From the IMG/VR virus record IMGVR_UViG_2728369185_000014: a DNA stretch of 42,922 bases; one strand, written 5' to 3'. A model generated the notes under the pieces. The model was given only the letters and a program-made list of their open reading frames with translations, was not told the DNA's origin and did no database searches. The translations under genes and the position numbers were made by a program. Positions 4,950 to 41,127 of this stretch are shown here, piece after piece. Within the stretch, counting starts at the first letter, position 1; every line of letters begins with the position of its first letter. This DNA is from a virus. Its lineage: Duplodnaviria; Heunggongvirae; Uroviricota; Caudoviricetes.

Positions 4950-5082
4950 TTTTTGGGACTCCTGGCTGATTAAGTATGTCGATAAGGCGTTTCCATCCGT
5001 CACGTAATTTACGGGTGATTCGTTCAAGTAAAGATTCGGAAGGGCAGCCAGCAACAGGCCACCCTGCAATGGCATATTGCAT
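4918..5082 (-). CDS. cIII: CIII (inhibitor of FtsH-mediated CII degradation)
   Basis: 54-aa [51 protein letters not shown].. translated by hand from the minus strand; below the 60-aa track cutoff; overlaps the kil start as in lambda. Confidence 0.75.
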   Translation of the reverse strand: MQYAIAGWPVAGCPSESLLERITRKLRDGWKRLIDILNQPGVPKNGSNNYGYPD

Positions 5083-5154
5083 GGTGTGCTCCTTATTTAT
5101 ACATAACGAAAAACGCCTCGAGTGAAGCGTAATTGGTATGCGGTAACGCCGCGC

Positions 5155-23467: not shown

Positions 23468-23662
23468 TCATCCATCATCACTTTGGATTGATGTATATGC
23501 TCTCTTTTCTGACGTTAGTCTCCGACGGCAGGCTTCAATGACCCAGGCTGAGAAATTCCCGGACCCTTTTTGCTCAAGAGCGATGTTAATTTGTTCAATC
23601 ATTTGGTTAGGAAAGCGGATGTTGCGGGTTGTTGTTCTGCGGGTTCTGTTCTTCGTTGACAT
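23468..23662 (-). CDS. Small basic protein upstream of cos (lambda orf-64-like)
   Basis: 64 aa MSTKNRTRRTTTRNIRFPNQMIEQINIALEQ...; same position and strand as the small ORF before cos in lambda. Confidence 0.65.
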   Translation of the reverse strand: MSTKNRTRRTTTRNIRFPNQMIEQINIALEQKGSGNFSAWVIEACRRRLTSEKRAYTSIQSDDG

Positions 23663-24596: not shown

Positions 24597-28277
<3,681 letters not shown>

Positions 28278-28297
<20 letters not shown>

Positions 28298-29994: not shown

Positions 29995-30239
29995 ATGTCG
30001 ATGTACACAACCGCCCAGCTGCTGGCGGCAAATGAGCAGAAATTTAAGTTTGATCCGCTGTTTCTGCGTCTCTTTTTCCGTGAGAGCTATCCCTTCACCA
30101 CGGAGAAAGTCTATCTCTCACAAATTCCGGGGCTGGTAAACATGGCGCTGTACGTTTCGCCGATTGTTTCCGGTGAGGTTATCCGCTCCCGTGGCGGCTC
30201 CACCTCTGAATTTACGCCGGGATATGTCAAGCCGAAGCA
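29995..30239 (+). pseudogene. E: Major capsid protein E, 5' fragment (codons 1-82) cut by an insertion
   Basis: MSMYTTAQLLAANEQKFKFDPLFLRLFF...TPGYVKPKH matches the lambda E N-terminus, then diverges into 9 unrelated codons and a stop at 30270. Confidence 0.9.
30230..30239 (+). repeat. Left copy of a 10-bp direct repeat AGCCGAAGCA (putative att core)
   Basis: The same 10-mer is at the right junction (41118..41127); both copies lie exactly where E homology is lost and regained; placed by hand. Confidence 0.7.
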
Positions 30240-31639: not shown

Positions 31640-31867
31640 ATGAAAAAAATGGCAATTGTTGATAAAAAGGGTCTGGAGTACATTCCTAACATTGACCGAA
31701 TGATCCGTGAGAAAGAATGTCGGGAGCTAACCACTCTTGCGAACAGCACACGCTGGAAGCTGGAGAAGGAAGGAAAATTTCCTAAGCGGATCAAGATTGG
31801 TTCCACTGCTGTTGCATATCGTCTTTCAGAAGTGCAGGCATGGATTCGAGGTGAGTGGGTAGTTTAA
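31640..31867 (+). CDS. alpA: AlpA-family transcriptional regulator/excisionase
   Basis: 75 aa starting 2 nt after the int stop; ...RELTTLANSTRWKLEKEGKFPKRIKIGSTAVAYRLSEVQAWI... fits the AlpA/Vis winged-helix family. Confidence 0.7.
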   Translation: MKKMAIVDKKGLEYIPNIDRMIREKECRELTTLANSTRWKLEKEGKFPKRIKIGSTAVAYRLSEVQAWIRGEWVV

Positions 31868-31936
31868 ATTATCTCAGAATAAAATATTATGAATTACTGA
31901 TTTGAGAATTTGTACTCAAATCAGTAATAACATTCT

Positions 31937-32473
31937 TTATAAGAGATTAAATCCAAATAAAGAGTAATCATATACCGGGGTGCATTGCATTCCACTGAAT
32001 ATGCTGATGTTTTTTTCTGTTTCTATCCTTTTTTCAATAAGTTGTTGTATATTTTTACAGTACAATTTGTGTGTGATGTTATTATCGTAAGCCTGATATA
32101 GCAACGTCAATGTTGACGCTAGGAAACATACAGATAAAATTAAAGTAACATATGCGGTTTTTTTATTTTTTGTCCATGATCTATTTGTTTGTGAAATATA
32201 AAGAATTCTGATGTGGATAATGGTGAGAGACAATAGCAGGCCACTCAATAAAATAAGTATTGGGTTTGCGTATTTTATTAATGGTTGAGAGCAAAAAACT
32301 ATTATAGCTCCTGTGACTGCGTATGAGAAAAAGGAGTAATTAAACTTCTTACTCCTTCTCTCAAGTATTTTAATTTCATCTTGTGTGGGGGTTTTAGATG
32401 CCTCTAATATAAGTTTATTGAATGTTTCTGTTATCTTGTTTTTTGTGTTTGTGGCTATTTTTTTTAGATTCAT
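31937..32473 (-). CDS. Accessory membrane protein (178 aa, about three TM helices)
   Basis: Very AT-rich ORF with hydrophobic segments (AVTGAIIVFCSQPLI, ILILLSGLLLSLTIIHI, YVTLILSVCFLASTLTLL); no homologue recognised. Confidence 0.5.
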   Translation of the reverse strand: MNLKKIATNTKNKITETFNKLILEASKTPTQDEIKILERRSKKFNYSFFSYAVTGAIIVFCSQPLIKYANPILILLSGLLLSLTIIHIRILYISQTNRSWTKNKKTAYVTLILSVCFLASTLTLLYQAYDNNITHKLYCKNIQQLIEKRIETEKNISIFSGMQCTPVYDYSLFGFNLL

Positions 32474-32823
32474 AGCATTCTAACTCCCTTAACTTATTTA
32501 TTACTTTCTCTTTATGATAAGAGAGGGGAATGACTTGGTAAAGTGATTTGTCATTAATAATGATAATCCTTGCGATAAATATTTCTGCAAGTTATTTATC
32601 TGTTTGTTGCTATCTTGTTAAGCGTTGGGTGTGGTTTATGTTTGGAGCGACTTTATTTAATCGTGATTTTATGGATTTATATTTATATCCTGTAAGATAA
32701 GCGCATGTTAGTTCAGGAGTAGTGTCAGATAAAATTATTCGGAGTAGAACTACCTTTTCTGTTTATTGCCAGTATTTACATAGCAATGCGCCGTAGTTAC
32801 TCACATCACGGCGCTGATACTAA

Positions 32824-33126
32824 TTATTCAGATTCTTTGGCTTTACGCCGCTGGAGTTCTTCACGAGCGACGGCTACGAGTTGCCCGATTTCCTCCGCTG
32901 CCTTGATGCCGATTTGTTCGACCTTAGCTAAGGCATCCAGTGAAGACACGAGGGGATTTTCTCCGCTTCCTTCTGCCTGGCGGCGGGCGATCTCACCGCG
33001 CATGGCGGTTACTATGAATCCGGCGTTGCTCTCGCCGTCCAGTTTTACGGATTCCATGCCCTCCATAACATCGTGGGGAACCCTGATCGTTGTCATTTGC
33101 GATTTTGCATTTTTGTATACAGACAT
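32824..33126 (-). CDS. Ribbon-helix-helix-type DNA-binding protein (100 aa)
   Basis: N-terminal ...MTTIRVPHDVMEGMESVKLDGESNAGFIVTAMR... has the pattern of CopG/Arc-type RHH domains; divergent from the rightward operon. Confidence 0.5.
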   Translation of the reverse strand: MSVYKNAKSQMTTIRVPHDVMEGMESVKLDGESNAGFIVTAMRGEIARRQAEGSGENPLVSSLDALAKVEQIGIKAAEEIGQLVAVAREELQRRKAKESE

Positions 33127-33334
33127 AGTTAATCACCAATTTGTTATGTGTATATCACTATACACAAAAGTGATATATAAAAACACTTGCAATGTATATC
33201 ACCACAATATAATGTATATCTCACATTATGGTCGCTATGTATCTCACAATGATCGATTCATAAAAACGACGAAACCCGGCAGTGCGCGAACACTAACCGG
33301 GCTTCTAACCAAACCGTTAAACGAGGTAACGATT
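33127..33334. promoter_or_regulatory. Divergent promoter region with TGTATATCAC/GTGATATA repeats
   Basis: AT-rich intergenic segment with at least four copies of TGTATATC(A/T)C in both orientations, between the RHH gene and the rightward operon. Confidence 0.45.
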
Positions 33335-33700
33335 ATGGCTGGAACACAGCATACCCAAACTCACCCTAAATTTATATACACCTTTCTGGCACTACACCAC
33401 GACCGCATGGCAGATGGAGCAACTACGGTACATGTAGCCGCTGACACGCTGGTTGATGCCCGCAAGATGGTTAAGGAGATGGGCTATACTGCGGCTTTCT
33501 GGAAAGGGCGTGAAGAAAACACGCTGTTTATTCAGAAATGCGAAAACAATTTCATCTGGCGTTTTATCGCCCTGAGTACGGCACAACCGCGCGTGATTCA
33601 CATCGTGGCCACCAGCGAACAGGAAGCCCGCCAGCAATCCCCGGCTGGTTGCGTGAGGGTATTCGCCGCCCGTATTCGTCAGGAGGTATGCCGTGCTTAA
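33335..33700 (+). CDS. Hypothetical protein (121 aa), first gene of the island rightward operon
   Basis: Internal ATG of the long track ORF; the upstream part of that ORF is antisense to the RHH gene. Confidence 0.45.
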   Translation: MAGTQHTQTHPKFIYTFLALHHDRMADGATTVHVAADTLVDARKMVKEMGYTAAFWKGREENTLFIQKCENNFIWRFIALSTAQPRVIHIVATSEQEARQQSPAGCVRVFAARIRQEVCRA

Positions 33701-33878
33701 AACCTTCCGTGTATTTGCCCGAGCGGTTAACCCACGAGGCCACACAATTGGTATCACTCAGAACGTGAAGGCTGTTAATGTTCAGACGGCTATTGCTGTG
33801 GTGAGAAGCGAATCATCAGAATATGGCTTATCACAAGTCATTATTTCAGCAGTGTATGAATTAAAAGAGGTGCATTAA
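33693..33878 (+). CDS. Hypothetical small protein (61 aa)
   Basis: Track ORF overlapping the previous stop; same operon. Confidence 0.4.
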   Translation: MLKTFRVFARAVNPRGHTIGITQNVKAVNVQTAIAVVRSESSEYGLSQVIISAVYELKEVH

Positions 33879-34069
33879 TGCAGGAAATTACATTACACGA
33901 AGCCGCTGAACGTGCGCACCAGACAGAAATTATTTGCCGCCTTCTTGAGGTATACCCGAACAAAATTACAGATGCTGATATATCCGCACTGGCGAGCCTA
34001 CTGGCGCGTCTTTCGGGAAGTGTCGCTAGTTTTTTGATTGAGGAAGAAAGTAAGCTGGTGGGGGATTAA
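33878..34069 (+). CDS. Hypothetical small protein (63 aa)
   Basis: Track ORF with stop/start overlap to its neighbours. Confidence 0.4.
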   Translation: MQEITLHEAAERAHQTEIICRLLEVYPNKITDADISALASLLARLSGSVASFLIEEESKLVGD

Positions 34070-34291
34070 ATGAATACAGAACGGGAAGTCTTTTTTAAAT
34101 TGTTAGCATGTGCAGAAAGTTCATTAACTTTAAATAATTCAGCAAAAGCAATATTAAATATGTGGCTTGATTGCATAAATGACAATGAAGATGCAAATAT
34201 TGCTTATGGCCTGTTGTCACTTATTGATGAAGCAGCAGAAAAACTCAATGACGCAATAAATAGTGCCCTGTTATCAAATAAGTCGAGTTAA
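34070..34291 (+). CDS. Hypothetical small protein (73 aa)
   Basis: Track ORF, AT-rich, contiguous in the operon. Confidence 0.4.
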   Translation: MNTEREVFFKLLACAESSLTLNNSAKAILNMWLDCINDNEDANIAYGLLSLIDEAAEKLNDAINSALLSNKSS

Positions 34292-34308
34292 GTCGAGGAA
34301 TAAATAAT

Positions 34309-34608
34309 ATGGAAATGAAAAATTCTGGCTTTATTGCCAGCGGCCCCGCTCGGCCTGAATTTATGAACGGCGATATTTACCGCGATAAATACGGCGGCAC
34401 GGTAACGATTAAAGGCGTGGCAGAACGGCGCATCACTTACCGCCGTGAGGGGTATAGCTATGACTGCGTGATGCCTGTTTATCAGTTCCGGCGTGATTTT
34501 TCCCTGGTATATGCCGCACCTCGCAGTAAGCCCACCAGCAGGGAAAAAGCGCGGGGAAACATCCAGAAAATGAAAAGCATGATTAACGCATTCAGGGGCA
34601 AAAAATGA
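34309..34608 (+). CDS. Hypothetical basic protein (99 aa)
   Basis: Track ORF whose stop overlaps the primase start. Confidence 0.4.
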   Translation: MEMKNSGFIASGPARPEFMNGDIYRDKYGGTVTIKGVAERRITYRREGYSYDCVMPVYQFRRDFSLVYAAPRSKPTSREKARGNIQKMKSMINAFRGKK

Positions 34609-36356
34609 AACTGGCACCGAACTTAAAAAAACAGCCACGCGACAGACTGACAGAGGTAATCATCTTTGCAGGTAGTGATGCGTGGAGCCATGCGAAAGAG
34701 TGGCAGGAATGGGCGGGTAAACATATTGCCGCCGACGATGTGCCGCCTGTCGTGCTGGCTGATGAGCAACTGAAAAACATCATCGATTACCGGATCATTG
34801 ATGAAGATCGTCAGTGTGTGCGTGTTTACCGCGCAGGACATATCACAGAGCACAGCATGACGCAGATTGTTACGTTACTGGCTGTGGCTGGAGTGAAGAC
34901 CGTACACGAATACGCGGGGATTACTGACACCAGCCCCGTGGATTTATCCGACCAGTTGCCGCGACTCAAAGAGGAATGCGAGCGTGGGGAAAGTCTGGTG
35001 CTTAATCTTCCGACGAAGCAAAAGGCGCAACTTTCACAGATGGCAGACAGTGAACGTGCACAACTACTTGCCGATCGCTTTGATGGTGTGTGTGTTCATG
35101 CAGAAAGTGAAATCGTCCACGTATGGCGCGGCGGGGTATGGTGTCCGGTCAGCACAATGGAGCTGAGCCGCGAAATGGTGGCGATCTATTCAGAGCACAG
35201 GGCCACGTTCAGCAAACGTGTAATCAATAACGCCGTGGAAGCGTTAAAAGTTATTGCCGACCCCATGGGGGAGCCGTCCGGTGATTTACTACCGTTCACT
35301 AATGGTGTGCTTAACCTGAAAACGGGGGATTTTTCTCCGCACTTACCGGAGCACTGGAGCACCACGCACAATGGCATTGAGTACACGCCACCAGTAGCAG
35401 GGGAAAACATCCGCGATAATGCGCCAAATTTCCATAAATGGCTTGAACATGCTGCAGGAAAAGACCCGCGCAAGATGATGCGTATATGTGCCGCGTTATA
35501 CATGATTATGGCGAACCGCTACGACTGGCAGATGTTCATTGAGGCCACCGGAGACGGGGGAAGCGGTAAGAGTACATTTACCCATATTGCCACCCTGCTT
35601 GCTGGCAAACAGAACACCGTAAGCGCAGAGATGACATCACTCGATGATGCAGGAGGGCGCGCGCAGGTTGTCGGGAGTCGTCTTATCGTCCTTGCCGATC
35701 AGCTGAAATATACGGGGGAAGGCACGGGCATCAAGAAAATCACGGGAGGCGATCCCGTTGAAATTAACCCGAAATATGAGAAGCGATTCACGACGATAAT
35801 AAGGGCGGTGGTACTGGCAACCAATAACGACCCGATGATCTTTACCGAACGGGCCGGAGGTGTGTCACGCCGTCGGGTGATTTTCCGGTTCGACAACATT
35901 GTAAGGGAGGACGAAAAAGACAAGGAATTACCGGAAAAGATAGCGGCAGAAATCCCCGTAATTATCCGCCGCTTGCTGGCTAATTTTGCTGACCCTGAAA
36001 AGGCACGGGCTTTATTACTGGAACAGCGTGACGGTGATGAAGCTCTGGCAATAAAGCAGCAAACGGATCCGGTTGTTGAGCTTTGCGCGGCGCTGGAGTT
36101 TCTGGAGGAAGCTCGTGGGCTAATGATGGGCGGTGGTGGTGACACCGTGAAGTACACGACCAGAAACAGCCTTTACCGTGTCTATATGGCCTTCATGGCA
36201 TATACAGGAAAGGGGAAATGTTTGAGCGTGAATGAGTTCGGAAAGGCTATGAGGTCAGCGGCGAAAGTTTACGGATATGAATATATTACGCGAAAAGTTA
36301 AGGGAGTCACGCAGACCAACGCAACGACTACTGATGATTGCGATGCGTTTTTATAA
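34605..36356 (+). CDS. Primase-helicase (P4-alpha/D5-type NTPase)
   Basis: 583 aa with Walker A GDGGSGKST and downstream helicase-like motifs; immediately followed by an iteron array. Confidence 0.8.
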   Translation: MKLAPNLKKQPRDRLTEVIIFAGSDAWSHAKEWQEWAGKHIAADDVPPVVLADEQLKNIIDYRIIDEDRQCVRVYRAGHITEHSMTQIVTLLAVAGVKTVHEYAGITDTSPVDLSDQLPRLKEECERGESLVLNLPTKQKAQLSQMADSERAQLLADRFDGVCVHAESEIVHVWRGGVWCPVSTMELSREMVAIYSEHRATFSKRVINNAVEALKVIADPMGEPSGDLLPFTNGVLNLKTGDFSPHLPEHWSTTHNGIEYTPPVAGENIRDNAPNFHKWLEHAAGKDPRKMMRICAALYMIMANRYDWQMFIEATGDGGSGKSTFTHIATLLAGKQNTVSAEMTSLDDAGGRAQVVGSRLIVLADQLKYTGEGTGIKKITGGDPVEINPKYEKRFTTIIRAVVLATNNDPMIFTERAGGVSRRRVIFRFDNIVREDEKDKELPEKIAAEIPVIIRRLLANFADPEKARALLLEQRDGDEALAIKQQTDPVVELCAALEFLEEARGLMMGGGGDTVKYTTRNSLYRVYMAFMAYTGKGKCLSVNEFGKAMRSAAKVYGYEYITRKVKGVTQTNATTTDDCDAFL

Positions 36357-36364
36357 AAAATGGC

Positions 36365-36615
36365 AATGGTTATCTACCTTGTCTACCTGACTGAAATAAA
36401 ATACTTTTATTTCAATGTATTAATGCAGGTAGATAACTATTTTTCACTGTCTACCTGTTATCTACCTTATCTACCCATTTTTGTAGACAGGTAAGGAGAC
36501 GGGTAGAGATGAGGTAGACAGCTATTTGGGGCTGTCTACCTCCCTGAAACCCGCGCCATTACTGGCCTGATAACTAATCAGGTAGACAAGGTAGACAAGG
36601 TGGTGGTGCACAAAA
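36365..36615. repeat. Iteron array (GGTAGACA/TGTCTACC, at least 10 copies) with an AT-rich spacer: putative island origin
   Basis: Repeated 8-9-mers in both orientations (TTGTCTACC, AGGTAGATA, CAGGTAGACAAGGTAGACAAGG...) flanking an A/T-rich segment directly after the primase gene. Confidence 0.7.
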
Positions 36616-38968: not shown

Positions 38969-39352
38969 ATGCAGAATCATTACAATGACCTTAAGCCAAT
39001 TGCCGAAATGATGTATCCGGATCCAGCAGTAGAGGAATTAAAGGCTATTGCTGACAAAATGCGTTTAAGCGAGCGTCTTGTTGATATGAATCAGGTGATG
39101 GAACTTACAACCCTGAGTCGTCGTACACTGCTAAACCTTGAAGCACGTGGAGAGTTCCCCGAACGCGTGCAGGTTACGGAAGGGCGTAAGGCCTGGTATT
39201 TAAGCGAAGTGATCGACTGGATAAACAATATTCCGCGCGCTTCTGAATATTGCCGCGTACCTGTCCCAAAAAAGCCAGATGCGGCGCTATGCCTCAAGAT
39301 TGAGCGTGTACGCCGCAATGCGCGGGATGGTCGCTATAAGCTGATTGGTTGA
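38969..39352 (+). CDS. AlpA/excisionase-like winged-helix protein (127 aa) next to the island cos
   Basis: Central ...MNQVMELTTLSRRTLLNLEARGEFPERVQVTEGRKAWYLSEVIDWI... fits the AlpA/Xis-type HTH; sits immediately upstream of the island cos. Confidence 0.5.
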   Translation: MQNHYNDLKPIAEMMYPDPAVEELKAIADKMRLSERLVDMNQVMELTTLSRRTLLNLEARGEFPERVQVTEGRKAWYLSEVIDWINNIPRASEYCRVPVPKKPDAALCLKIERVRRNARDGRYKLIG

Positions 39353-39379
39353 TGAAATTAGGGCCCGTTCTGGCTGGCG

Positions 39380-39445
39380 GGTCCTTTCCGGCGATCCAGA
39401 ACGTTACGGGGCGGCGACCTCGCGGGTTTTCGCTATTTATGAGCA
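39380..39445 (+). promoter_or_regulatory. Island cos site (cosN 12-mer at about 39408..39419)
   Basis: GGGTCCTTTCCGGCGATCC...TTACGGGGCGGCGACCTCGCGGGTTTTCGCTATTTATGA is nearly identical to the prophage cos at 23840..23900, then diverges. Confidence 0.75.
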
Positions 39446-39568
39446 TTTTTAGGGGACTGGTGGTGGTTTTGTTGTTCGCTATATCTGTATGAATAATAAG
39501 AGAAAAACACAATCAACACACCAACCTGAAACAGTAATTAAGTTGTGGTATCAATGAAATTGCACCTG

Positions 39569-40096
39569 ATGAACAAAAAAAACATGGCAAAAAGTTGCCG
39601 TGTAAGCGCCACTGCGTTCGATAAGTGGGGAGTGATTCCCGTCGAGCGTAAGGGCCGCGAGGCGTTTTATGATGTCGCCAGTGTAATAGATAATCGGGTT
39701 AACAATGCAATCAGCCAGATTACAAACGAAACGGGCGAGATTGATGATGATGAACTCCTACGAGTCAGGATCAGATTGCTGACAGCACAGGCAGAGGCGC
39801 AGGAGCTTAAAAACGAGCGCGAACGCGGCGACGTTATTGATACAGCGTTTTGTATATACGTGCTTTCAAAACTGGCGAGTCAGATTTCTTCAATCATGGA
39901 CAGCCTGCCGCTTGCCATGACAAGGAAGTTTCCCGACATGAAGCCGTCTATGCTGGATGGACTGAAAAAAGAAGTTATCAGAGCCTGTAACGCATGCGCA
40001 AAACTTGACGAAAACATACCGCTGATGCTGTCCGATTATCTGATGGAAACTGCCGGAAACGTACCGGATAAGTTGCAGCTGAATAAAGATAAGTAA
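39569..40096 (+). CDS. Terminase small-subunit paralogue (Nu1-like)
   Basis: MNKKNMAKSCRVSATAFDKWGVIPV... and ...RLLTAQAEAQELKNERERGDVIDTAFCIYVLSKLASQISSIMDSLPLAMTRKFPD... parallel lambda Nu1; start uncertain (the track ORF begins at 39545). Confidence 0.7.
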   Translation: MNKKNMAKSCRVSATAFDKWGVIPVERKGREAFYDVASVIDNRVNNAISQITNETGEIDDDELLRVRIRLLTAQAEAQELKNERERGDVIDTAFCIYVLSKLASQISSIMDSLPLAMTRKFPDMKPSMLDGLKKEVIRACNACAKLDENIPLMLSDYLMETAGNVPDKLQLNKDK

Positions 40097-41117: not shown

Positions 41118-41127
41118 AGCCGAAGCA
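41118..41127 (+). repeat. Right copy of the 10-bp direct repeat AGCCGAAGCA (putative att core)
   Basis: Identical to 30230..30239; E codons resume immediately after it; placed by hand. Confidence 0.7.

What the first reader, a model, noticed from the sequence alone, without database searches (positions are those of the whole stretch)
31937..34608. AT-rich accessory cargo inside the element
Seen in the sequence: between alpA and the primase lie a very AT-rich leftward gene for a small membrane protein (31937..32473), a leftward ribbon-helix-helix gene (32824..33126), a divergent promoter with TGTATATCAC-type repeats (33127..33334), and a rightward operon of five small overlapping genes with no recognisable function. 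Established knowledge: satellite accessory regions often carry anti-phage or helper-interference functions. Inference only: this is the place to look for defence or helper-manipulation genes.
Basis: inference. Interest (0 to 1): 0.5.

Follow-up and report, generated by a model that had tools for sequence, protein, structure and literature searches.

The report
Satellite cargo slot plus regulatory switch
Only the AT-rich membrane-protein gene is swappable cargo, sitting where sister phage satellites carry defence-type genes; the rest of the flagged stretch appears to be the satellite's conserved on/off switch, a repressor and a small antisense RNA guarding its replication genes.

Summary
The element is a known helper-embedded PICI of the 11capE type, inserted in the prophage capsid gene E.

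(1) 31868-32823 (31% GC) is a real cargo slot. Of 178 E. coli genomes with the same int/alpA, about 67 carry this membrane gene. Siblings carry a TIR protein (PADLOC PDC-S35) or a DUF2971 protein at the same place. The 178-aa, three-helix inner-membrane protein is nearly an orphan, with no defence, phage or structural match. Its function is inferred only; phage exclusion at the periplasmic face is my best guess.

(2) 32824-34608 is not cargo. It is a module conserved across enterobacterial PICIs, including the model EcCICFT073:
- a YlcI/YnfO ribbon-helix-helix protein whose DNA-reading strand covaries with the five operator repeats;
- divergent promoters;
- an apparently undescribed SymR-like antisense RNA (33340→33263) over the start of an Icd-like leader gene;
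- three variable small genes, then DUF4222 coupled to the primase.

Verdict: observation partly confirmed, interpretation partly supported. The switch is a new variant of the P1/P4-type immunity module.

The parts
30230..30239 (.). attL core AGCCGAAGCA inside prophage major capsid gene E (context: left end of the satellite)
   Evidence: The same 10-bp block recurs at 41118-41127. The E gene is split into 5' and 3' fragments. This matches the 10-bp identity block of 11capE in PMC10111431.
30403..31638 (+). Tyrosine integrase of the satellite
   Evidence: Pfam Arm-DNA-bind_3 and Phage_integrase; RefSeq call in L001.
31640..31867 (+). alpA (activator/excisionase family)
   Evidence: Pfam Phage_AlpA, E=3e-15. 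Homology with sibling elements ends at about 31859.
31893..31928 (.). 14-bp palindromic hairpin between the convergent alpA and membrane genes; likely bidirectional terminator
   Evidence: Terminator scan; function inferred.
31937..32473 (-). Cargo gene: 178-aa inner-membrane protein with three TM helices, N-in/C-out, and a periplasmic C-terminal domain with two invariant cysteines. 30.5% GC.
   Evidence: Near-orphan: 8 clusters among 1.8 billion representatives. No PADLOC, Pfam, PHROG, PDB-fold or phage match. Present in 67 of 5426 E. coli genomes.
32474..32823 (-). AT-rich spacer belonging to the cargo cassette. No terminator is predicted between ylcI and the membrane gene; weak promoter-like sites.
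32824..33126 (-). YlcI/YnfO-family protein: N-terminal ribbon-helix-helix plus a C-terminal long helix. Proposed operator-binding repressor and autoregulator.
33149..33247 (.). Five operator copies of TGTATATCAC, at 33149(+), 33170(-), 33193(+), 33213(+) and 33238(+). They straddle the inferred leftward -10 (TATAGT, 33162-33157) and the rightward -35 (TTGCAA, 33187-33192) and -10 (TAATGT, 33210-33215).
   Evidence: Promoter hexamers are inferred from positions conserved across loci.
33263..33340 (-). SymR-like cis-antisense small RNA. It starts 3 nt past the icd-like ATG, covers the start codon and Shine-Dalgarno sequence, and ends in a GC hairpin plus U-run.
   Evidence: Rfam SymR hit of 35.3 bits, E=1.9e-4, over the full model but below the gathering score of 61. 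19 pairs, 97.3% paired, 9 pairs with compensatory changes, 0 of 500 shuffles as good. 32 G·U cells fall on this strand and none on the sense strand, and the same holds in non-training loci. A model built from PICI copies finds K-12 symR at its annotated start and a copy in EcCICFT073.
33335..33700 (+). Icd-like leader gene (two Icd-like repeats), first gene of the rightward operon
   Evidence: NF033153, 72.4 bits. PHROG 1743 and 6196, with two stretches.
33693..34291 (+). Three small, translationally coupled genes of 61, 63 and 73 aa, function unknown. This set varies between related elements.
   Evidence: PHROGs 3672, 1478 and 2196, all 'unknown function'. Different gene sets occupy this position in L003-L006 and L019-L022.
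34309..34608 (+). DUF4222 protein, overlapping the replicase start. A conserved partner of the replicase, whether primase or RepA helicase.
   Evidence: Pfam PF13973, E=9e-24. Synteny.
34605..36356 (+). P4-type primase/helicase (D5_N, DUF5906), end point of the operon
36369..36541 (.). Iteron repeats flanking an AT-rich stretch; probable replication origin (context)
   Evidence: Repeat families D3 and D7. The layout is as described for E. coli PICI origins in PMC6092414.

Best explanation
The flagged interval is two units of a helper-embedded PICI (11capE type).

**Unit A (31868-32823)** is a swappable cargo cassette in the satellite's variable slot after alpA.
- It encodes an orphan three-helix inner-membrane protein. 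Its conserved residues face the periplasm: the QPLxKYANP loop, and a C-terminal domain with two invariant cysteines.
- It lies on the repressor-side (leftward) strand, so it is probably made while the satellite is quiescent.
- My best guess is that it excludes superinfecting phages at the inner membrane, for example by blocking genome entry. This step is inferred only.

**Unit B (32824-34608)** is the satellite's immunity and replication switch.
- A YlcI-type ribbon-helix-helix dimer binds five TGTATATCAC operators. These overlap its own promoter and the rightward promoter, which shuts the replication operon.
- As a second lock, a constitutive 78-nt SymR-like antisense RNA pairs with the ribosome-binding site and start codon of the Icd-like leader gene.
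- All downstream genes are translationally coupled, so the block propagates through the small genes and DUF4222 to the primase.
- AlpA, and/or helper late transcription entering from the interrupted capsid gene, overrides both locks.

**Shown:** gene identities, synteny, slot variability, operator-protein covariation, and the RNA structure with its strand bias.
**Inferred:** repression, coupling, the induction route, and the membrane protein's function.
For: **Element identity**
-, and PMC10111431.

**Cargo slot**
- 67 of 178 genomes with the same int/alpA carry the membrane cassette.
- Siblings carry TIR/PDC-S35, DUF2971 or an unknown 273-aa protein at the same position.
- More distant PICIs carry AntA/Bro-type genes there.
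- A 38%-identical homologue sits in the same slot of another capsid-gene satellite. It lies 66 nt behind an Arc-like repressor gene on the same strand, with no terminator between them.
- Periplasm-facing conservation and topology.

**Switch**
- The YlcI-icd...DUF4222-replicase synteny holds in 20 or more loci from several genera and in EcCICFT073.
- The same RHH strand sequence goes with the same operator, even between E. coli and Xenorhabdus.
- Two YlcI proteins that are 93% identical but differ in the strand have different operators.
- RHH fold support.
- Antisense RNA.
- K-12 symR/symE has the same geometry.
- Overlapping start and stop codons.
Against: - There is no expression or binding data.
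- Neither promoter passed the generic consensus scan.
- The RNA scores below Rfam's SymR gathering threshold.
- The membrane protein has no similarity to any known exclusion or defence protein. Some distant homologues are lone chromosomal genes outside mobile elements.
- In this window the membrane gene lies 350 nt from ylcI, so co-transcription is not assured.
- Published work shows that AlpA alone induces EcCICFT073 (PMC6092414). The repressor layer may therefore be secondary.
Confidence: 0.62

Rival explanations
1. One reading: the whole 31937-34608 block is accessory cargo carrying defence or helper-interference genes.
For: - The slot after alpA is variable and holds defence-type genes in siblings.
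- The three middle small genes vary between elements and have no known function.
- The literature places accessory genes between the regulator and the primase (PMC10085698).
Against: - YlcI, the operator region, the antisense RNA, the icd-like gene and DUF4222-replicase are syntenic across PICIs with unrelated integrases and across genera.
- These genes have normal GC content.
- There are no PADLOC hits.
Confidence: 0.12
2. The membrane protein is a non-defence moron. For example, it could be an immunity protein against a membrane-acting bacteriocin or contact-dependent toxin, or a host-adaptation factor.
For: - Its size (178 aa), three-helix inner-membrane topology, AT-richness and periplasm-facing conservation resemble small immunity proteins. 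This resemblance rests on general knowledge, not on a test.
- Distant homologues sit alone in chromosomal, non-phage contexts.
Against: - There is no Pfam colicin-immunity or other family hit.
- The alternative alleles at this same slot are defence-type: TIR/PDC-S35 and DUF2971.
- A homologue keeps the same slot in a second satellite.
Confidence: 0.25
3. The RHH protein and the membrane protein form a toxin-antitoxin or abortive-infection pair: RHH antitoxin first, membrane toxin second.
For: - In L023 an Arc-like RHH gene precedes the membrane homologue by 66 nt on the same strand.
Against: - YlcI-type genes occur in at least 417 genomes, but the membrane gene in only 67.
- In most loci the RHH gene has no downstream partner, or faces a Bro/AntA gene.
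- Its operators sit on the promoter of the replication operon.
Confidence: 0.08
4. The conserved hairpins upstream of the icd-like gene act within the sense mRNA leader, as an attenuator or RBS-sequestering structure, and not as a separate antisense RNA.
For: - The first hairpin places the Shine-Dalgarno sequence in its loop on the sense strand.
- No transcript data are available.
Against: - All 32 wobble cells in the training set are G·U on the minus strand and would be A·C mismatches on the sense strand (291 against 259 of 299 cells paired). Non-training copies show the same bias (161 against 145 of 169).
- On the minus strand the second hairpin is followed by a U-run, as in a terminator.
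- A conserved -10-like TATGCT/TATGAT lies at the right distance.
- The 5' end coincides with that of K-12 symR relative to the start codon.
Confidence: 0.15

Closest known systems
Helper-embedded PICI Eco567.11capE, site E:Phage_cap_E:80 (Tommasini, Mageeney & Williams 2023, PMC10111431)
   Same: - Same insertion in the lambdoid capsid gene E, with a 10-bp core, co-oriented int-alpA-primase, and its own capsid and decoration genes.
- Strain NRG857c carries the same membrane cassette at 99.1% identity.
- The flagged region corresponds to the paper's 'Bro/dynamic zone' plus the start of its 'replication zone'.
   Different: - This element's dynamic zone has no Bro-N/AntA protein and no C4 or isrK RNA hit.
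- The paper treats the leftward genes as hypothetical.
- It does not mention YlcI, the operators, a SymR-like RNA, or TIR cargo.
Phage P1/P7 immI (c4 antisense RNA - icd - ant) and the P4 CI RNA immunity region
   Same: An Icd-type leader ORF heads a translationally coupled operon, and its expression is gated by a small antisense-acting RNA. This description of P1 and P4 rests on established knowledge and on the summary in PMC10111431.
   Different: - The RNA here is a true cis-antisense transcript of a different family (SymR-like); Rfam C4 and isrK do not match.
- A protein repressor with operators is added.
- The operon ends in a primase rather than an antirepressor.
SymR/SymE of E. coli K-12 (Rfam RF01809)
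   Same: - Same two-hairpin architecture and shared sequence blocks.
- The RNA starts 3 nt beyond the target's start codon.
- Detection works in both directions.
   Different: - Scores are below the family threshold (35 bits against 61).
- The target gene is Icd-like and unrelated to SymE.
- The setting is a satellite's replication switch, not an SOS-induced toxin.
P22 immI Mnt/Arc ribbon-helix-helix repressors at divergent promoters
   Same: Small RHH proteins, with Mnt also carrying a C-terminal oligomerisation helix, bind repeated operators between divergent promoters. This rests on established knowledge.
   Different: - No significant sequence or profile similarity.
- Membership of the RHH fold is supported only modestly.
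Defence hotspots of satellites and prophages (P4 and P2 hotspots; PICI immune cargo) and repressor-linked exclusion genes such as lambda cI-rexAB, P22 sieA and T4 imm
   Same: A fixed slot with alternative cargo, including a TIR protein. The cargo lies on the repressor-side strand, so it would be expressed in the quiescent state.
   Different: The membrane protein shares no detectable sequence or fold with any of these, and its activity is untested.

Membership tests
Helper-embedded PICI (E:Phage_cap_E:80 group) | [quoted passage not shown] | tested here: met
   The E gene is split at 30239 and 41118, with a 10-bp AGCCGAAGCA block at both ends.
Helper-embedded PICI (E:Phage_cap_E:80 group) | Four ordered zones: int plus alpA, dynamic zone, primase/SSB/ori, late genes | tested here: met
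Bro-network dynamic zone (PMC10111431) | A Bro-N/AntA-type domain-swapping protein between alpA and the replication genes | tested here: not met
   None of the window's genes in 31868-34608 has a Bro-N or AntA hit. Related PICIs do have one.
YlcI/YnfO family (NCBIfam NF041551) | Score above the curated cutoff over the 42-residue N-terminal domain | tested here: met
   70.5 bits against a cutoff of 30, covering profile positions 1-42 of 42.
Ribbon-helix-helix (Arc/MetJ/CopG) DNA-binding fold | Strand-helix-helix topology superposable on solved RHH domains | tested here: inconclusive
   - The model shows an extended strand, H18-27 and H34-53.
- Foldseek found nothing, and hhalign against Arc and Mnt was insignificant.
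Ribbon-helix-helix (Arc/MetJ/CopG) DNA-binding fold | Sequence-specific binding to repeated operators through the N-terminal strand | not testable with these tools
   Indirect support only: the strand residues covary with the operator repeats across 17 loci.
Icd-like protein (NCBIfam NF033153) | Score above the curated cutoff | tested here: met
   72.4 bits against a cutoff of 25.
Icd-like protein (NCBIfam NF033153) | Inhibits host cell division | not testable with these tools
SymR antisense RNA (Rfam RF01809) | Score at or above the gathering threshold | tested here: not met
   35.3 bits against 61. I therefore call it SymR-like, not a member.
SymR antisense RNA (Rfam RF01809) | Cis-antisense to the target's 5' end, starting just inside the coding sequence; two hairpins, the second a terminator | tested here: met
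   The geometry is identical to K-12 symR/symE. Structure and strand bias. Reciprocal detection at E=2e-5.
C4 / isrK immunity RNAs (Rfam) | Covariance-model match in the dynamic zone | tested here: not met
   No hit at the gathering score anywhere in the window, nor at E≤5 in 31850-33800.
Known or candidate anti-phage defence systems (PADLOC-DB v2) | Profile match for the membrane protein or any of the small proteins | tested here: not met
   No family matched any of the seven proteins at E≤0.1. The sibling TIR cargo does match PDC-S35.
Satellite cargo/defence hotspot | Same flanks, alternative unrelated genes, some of them defence-type | tested here: met
Type II toxin-antitoxin pair (RHH antitoxin plus toxin) | Obligate co-occurrence of the two genes as an operon | tested here: not met
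   The YlcI-type gene is in at least 417 genomes and the membrane gene in 67. Most loci have no partner gene.

The most novel reading that the evidence does not exclude
The YlcI-type RHH protein and the SymR-like antisense RNA together form the missing repression system of Gram-negative PICIs, where the literature so far knows only the activator AlpA. The chromosomal symR/symE locus would then be a relative or remnant of this mobile-element switch. Separately, the orphan membrane protein would be a new single-gene phage-exclusion factor carried in a satellite hotspot.
Probability: 0.3. Interest if true: 0.72.

Novelty: new variant of a known kind. Interest (0 to 1): 0.55.

Why it matters

- **A concrete repressor candidate.** This region offers a two-layer lock on the replication operon: an operator-binding RHH protein and a cis-antisense RNA. 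The same module is present in the model island EcCICFT073, so it can be tested with existing strains.
- **A link to SymR.** SymR has so far been known as a chromosomal antitoxin RNA. This result connects it to a widespread mobile-element RNA.
- **A defined search site.** The analysis delimits a precise cargo slot (about 31859 to the leftward regulator) in capsid-gene-embedded satellites. The slot alternates between a TIR protein, a DUF2971 protein and this orphan membrane protein, which makes it a compact place to look for new anti-phage functions.

Tried and rejected
**Membrane protein**
- Pfam, NCBIfam, PHROG and PADLOC scans gave only sub-threshold, composition-type hits: DUF443, DUF2721 and DUF4231 at E 0.005-0.07. 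I rejected these as evidence.
- The word-indexed homologue search found only copies at 83% identity or higher. The exhaustive HMMER search added just seven remote relatives.
- tblastn found nothing in phages and one marginal plasmid hit.
- A Foldseek search of the model against PDB gave nothing at E≤0.001. The AFDB library was unavailable.
- The contexts of the distant homologues were mixed: one satellite, one small integrase island, and one plain chromosomal site. Guilt by association therefore works only for the satellite slot.

**YlcI-like protein**

**Other tests**
- DUF4222 had no PDB relative.
- SymE and the Icd-like protein are unrelated.
- Rfam C4 and isrK, which I expected from the HE-PICI paper, gave no match.
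- Literature searches linking SymR, RHH, YlcI or DUF4222 to PICIs found nothing relevant.
- I considered a toxin-antitoxin reading of the RHH-membrane pair and rejected it on co-occurrence counts.
Full report
**Context**

The window holds a lambda-like prophage: terminase, portal, S49 protease, decoration protein and capsid gene E. Gene E is split by a 10.9-kb element. The same 10-bp block, AGCCGAAGCA, lies at 30230-30239 and at 41118-41127. The element carries int, alpA, a P4-type primase, SSB, iterons, its own E-like capsid and D-like decoration genes, a second AlpA-like gene and a Nu1-like small terminase.

This is the helper-embedded PICI described by Tommasini, Mageeney and Williams (PMC10111431), of type 11capE at site E:Phage_cap_E:80. 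The type strain NRG857c matches the flagged membrane cassette at 99.1%. In that paper's terms, the finding covers the 'dynamic (Bro) zone' and the start of the 'replication zone'.

**Checking the observation**

All stated ORFs exist and match RefSeq gene calls in a 99.9%-identical genome. The five rightward genes overlap or abut one another and run into the primase. TGTATATCAC occurs five times, with at most 1 mismatch, in 33149-33247 and only once elsewhere in the window.

Two parts of the description do not hold.
- Only 31868-32823 (31% GC) and the 73-aa gene (32% GC) are AT-rich. The other genes are 43-53% GC.
- Three of the 'unrecognisable' genes are recognisable: YlcI/YnfO, Icd-like and DUF4222.

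**The slot after alpA is real cargo space**

- A query ending in alpA finds 178 E. coli genomes. In many of them the match stops at about 31859, and in the rest it continues into the membrane cassette.
- The cassette itself is in 67 genomes.
- Sibling elements in the same capsid-gene site carry other genes there:
  - a 291-aa protein with a CAP12/Pycsar-type TIR domain, matching PADLOC candidate PDC-S35 at E=7e-67, in 37 genomes;
  - a DUF2971 protein in 36 genomes;
  - an unknown 273-aa protein.
- PICIs with other integrases, in E. coli and in six other genera, hold AntA/Bro-type genes, small ORFs or nothing in this slot.
- The literature independently lists this interval as an accessory position (PMC10085698).

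**The membrane protein**

- It has three hydrophobic helices. A basic N-terminal segment (11 K/R) and a basic second loop predict an N-in/C-out topology.
- The AlphaFold model is all-helical, with pLDDT 82.6.
- The family is tiny: eight clusters among 1.8 billion representatives.
- In the alignment, the invariant positions are P71 and G78 around the first periplasmic loop, and C139, Q143, E153, F159 and C164 in the C-terminal domain. The cytoplasmic N-terminus varies. This points to action on the periplasmic side, with a likely disulfide.
- There is no match to defence profiles, phage proteins, phage or plasmid DNA, or solved folds.
- A 38%-identical homologue occupies the same slot in another capsid-gene satellite. 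There it follows a 59-aa Arc-like repressor gene by 66 nt on the same strand, with no predicted terminator. That arrangement recalls lambda cI-rexAB.
- Other distant homologues sit in non-phage chromosomal sites.

I commit to phage exclusion at the inner membrane as the most likely role, at roughly 0.35-0.4. An immunity-type or host-adaptation moron is the main rival. None of this has been tested.

**The rest is a conserved switch**

The order is leftward YlcI-type gene, about 200 bp of control region, Icd-like gene, a variable number of small genes, DUF4222 overlapping the replicase. This order recurs in PICIs with unrelated integrases and with either primase or RepA-helicase replicases. It is found in E. 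coli, Xenorhabdus, Photorhabdus, Serratia, Yersinia, Scandinavium, Pantoea and Lelliottia, and in the model island EcCICFT073. In some capsid-gene siblings the leftward regulator is replaced by a SWIM-finger protein or a short Arc-like protein. This is how immunity regions typically behave.

**Repressor and operators**

The stronger evidence is comparative.

| Strand residues | Operator repeat | Loci |
|---|---|---|
| QMTTIRVP | TGTATATCAC | window, L003 |
| QLTTVRVP | GTGTGTTTCA | E. coli L002 and five Xenorhabdus/Photorhabdus loci |
| QSLTARIP | GTGTAAG-type repeats | L005, L006 |
| KQISIRIP | GTGTGATTCA | L013 |
| QIKNVR(V/I)P | GTGTGCATT / GTGTGTATT | L015, L016 |

The window and L002 proteins are 93% identical overall but differ in the strand and in their operators. 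The repeats flank a conserved leftward -10-like TATA(C/G/T)T, and they lie in and after the rightward -35/-10 (TTGAC(G/A)-type; TTGCAA and TAATGT here). Promoter function is inferred.

**An antisense RNA**

A sequence between the operators and the Icd-like start codon is more conserved than its surroundings. Several lines of evidence identify it as an antisense RNA.
- Rfam's SymR model aligns end to end on the minus strand at 33340→33268, with 35.3 bits and E=1.9e-4. This is below the gathering score of 61.
- In 16 loci, the two hairpins have 19 pairs that are 97.3% paired. Nine pairs show compensatory changes, and no shuffle or slid register comes close.
- All 32 wobble cells are G·U on the minus strand, which makes them A·C mismatches on the sense strand. 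The same bias holds in nine copies not used to build the model.
- The second hairpin is followed by a U-run.
- A -10-like TATGCT/TATGAT is conserved inside codons 4-6 of the Icd-like gene.
- The RNA would start 3 nt past the ATG, exactly as K-12 symR does relative to symE.
- A covariance model built only from PICI copies finds K-12 symR at its annotated 5' end (33.8 bits, E=2e-5). It also finds copies in the SWIM-type, TIR-type and L023 satellites and in EcCICFT073.
- SymE and the Icd-like protein are unrelated.

The logic matches the icd-containing immunity operon of P1/P7 and the RNA immunity of P4, but the RNA family is different. Rfam C4 and isrK do not match.

I found no paper that links SymR-like RNAs, YlcI or an RHH repressor to PICIs. 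The founding paper states that a global repressor in Gram-negative PICIs is unclear.

**The small genes**

The 61-, 63- and 73-aa genes belong to PHROGs of unknown function and are replaced by other small genes in related elements. They could act on the helper or the host, but nothing here tests that. DUF4222 is a fixed partner of the replicase and is best read as a replication accessory.

**Verdict**

The element is already known, and the cargo slot is a new instance of a known kind of hotspot with an orphan occupant. The RHH-plus-SymR-like switch is a new variant of phage and satellite immunity modules, and it is directly testable in EcCICFT073.

Noticed in passing
window 33263-33340 (minus strand): A conserved SymR-like cis-antisense RNA lies over the Shine-Dalgarno sequence and start codon of the Icd-like gene. 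It shows strong covariation and a strand-specific G·U bias, is detected reciprocally with K-12 symR, and is also present in EcCICFT073.
   Followed up: yes
window 26696-28297: The helper prophage's portal gene has an in-frame stop after codon 156 (27164-27166), as in the near-identical genome GN06489, where it is annotated as a pseudogene. The embedding prophage is probably defective, so the satellite may be stranded unless another helper enters the cell.
   Followed up: partly
window 23468-23662 (minus strand): The helper prophage carries its own 64-aa YlcI paralogue next to cos/nu1. It shares only the N-terminal domain with the satellite's 100-aa YlcI-like protein. Cross-talk between the two is possible but untested.
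   Followed up: no
L005 3824-4133 (E. coli 2013C-3250 PICI): A second SymR-like RNA copy (71.6 bits) and a 57-aa Arc-like gene sit inside the slot between alpA and ylcI. This looks like a remnant of a second, tandem immunity module.
   Followed up: partly
window 31893-31928: A perfect 14-bp palindromic hairpin lies between the convergent alpA and membrane genes. Q-antiterminated helper late transcription reading through it would run antisense over the membrane and repressor genes and then sense into the replication operon. This is a possible induction route in cis.
   Followed up: no
window 36369-36541: Two sets of iterons (GTTATCTACCTT-type and AGGTAGA..CTGTCTACCT palindromes) flank an AT-rich stretch just after the primase. 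This is the probable satellite origin.
   Followed up: no
window 38969-40096: A second AlpA-like gene and a Nu1-type small terminase follow the satellite's own capsid and decoration genes, whereas the published 11capE was described as lacking terS. The late zone differs between otherwise near-identical elements (compare L001 and L002).
   Followed up: no
L019-L022 (sibling capsid-gene satellites): The leftward regulator is swapped together with the cargo: a SWIM zinc-finger protein accompanies the DUF2971 cargo, and a 59-aa Arc-like protein accompanies the TIR cargo. The SymR-like RNA and the Icd-like gene are retained in all of them.
   Followed up: partly
window 5037-5095 (minus strand): Rfam match to the lambda cIII thermoregulator (88.5 bits), confirming that the surrounding prophage is lambda-like.
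   Followed up: no
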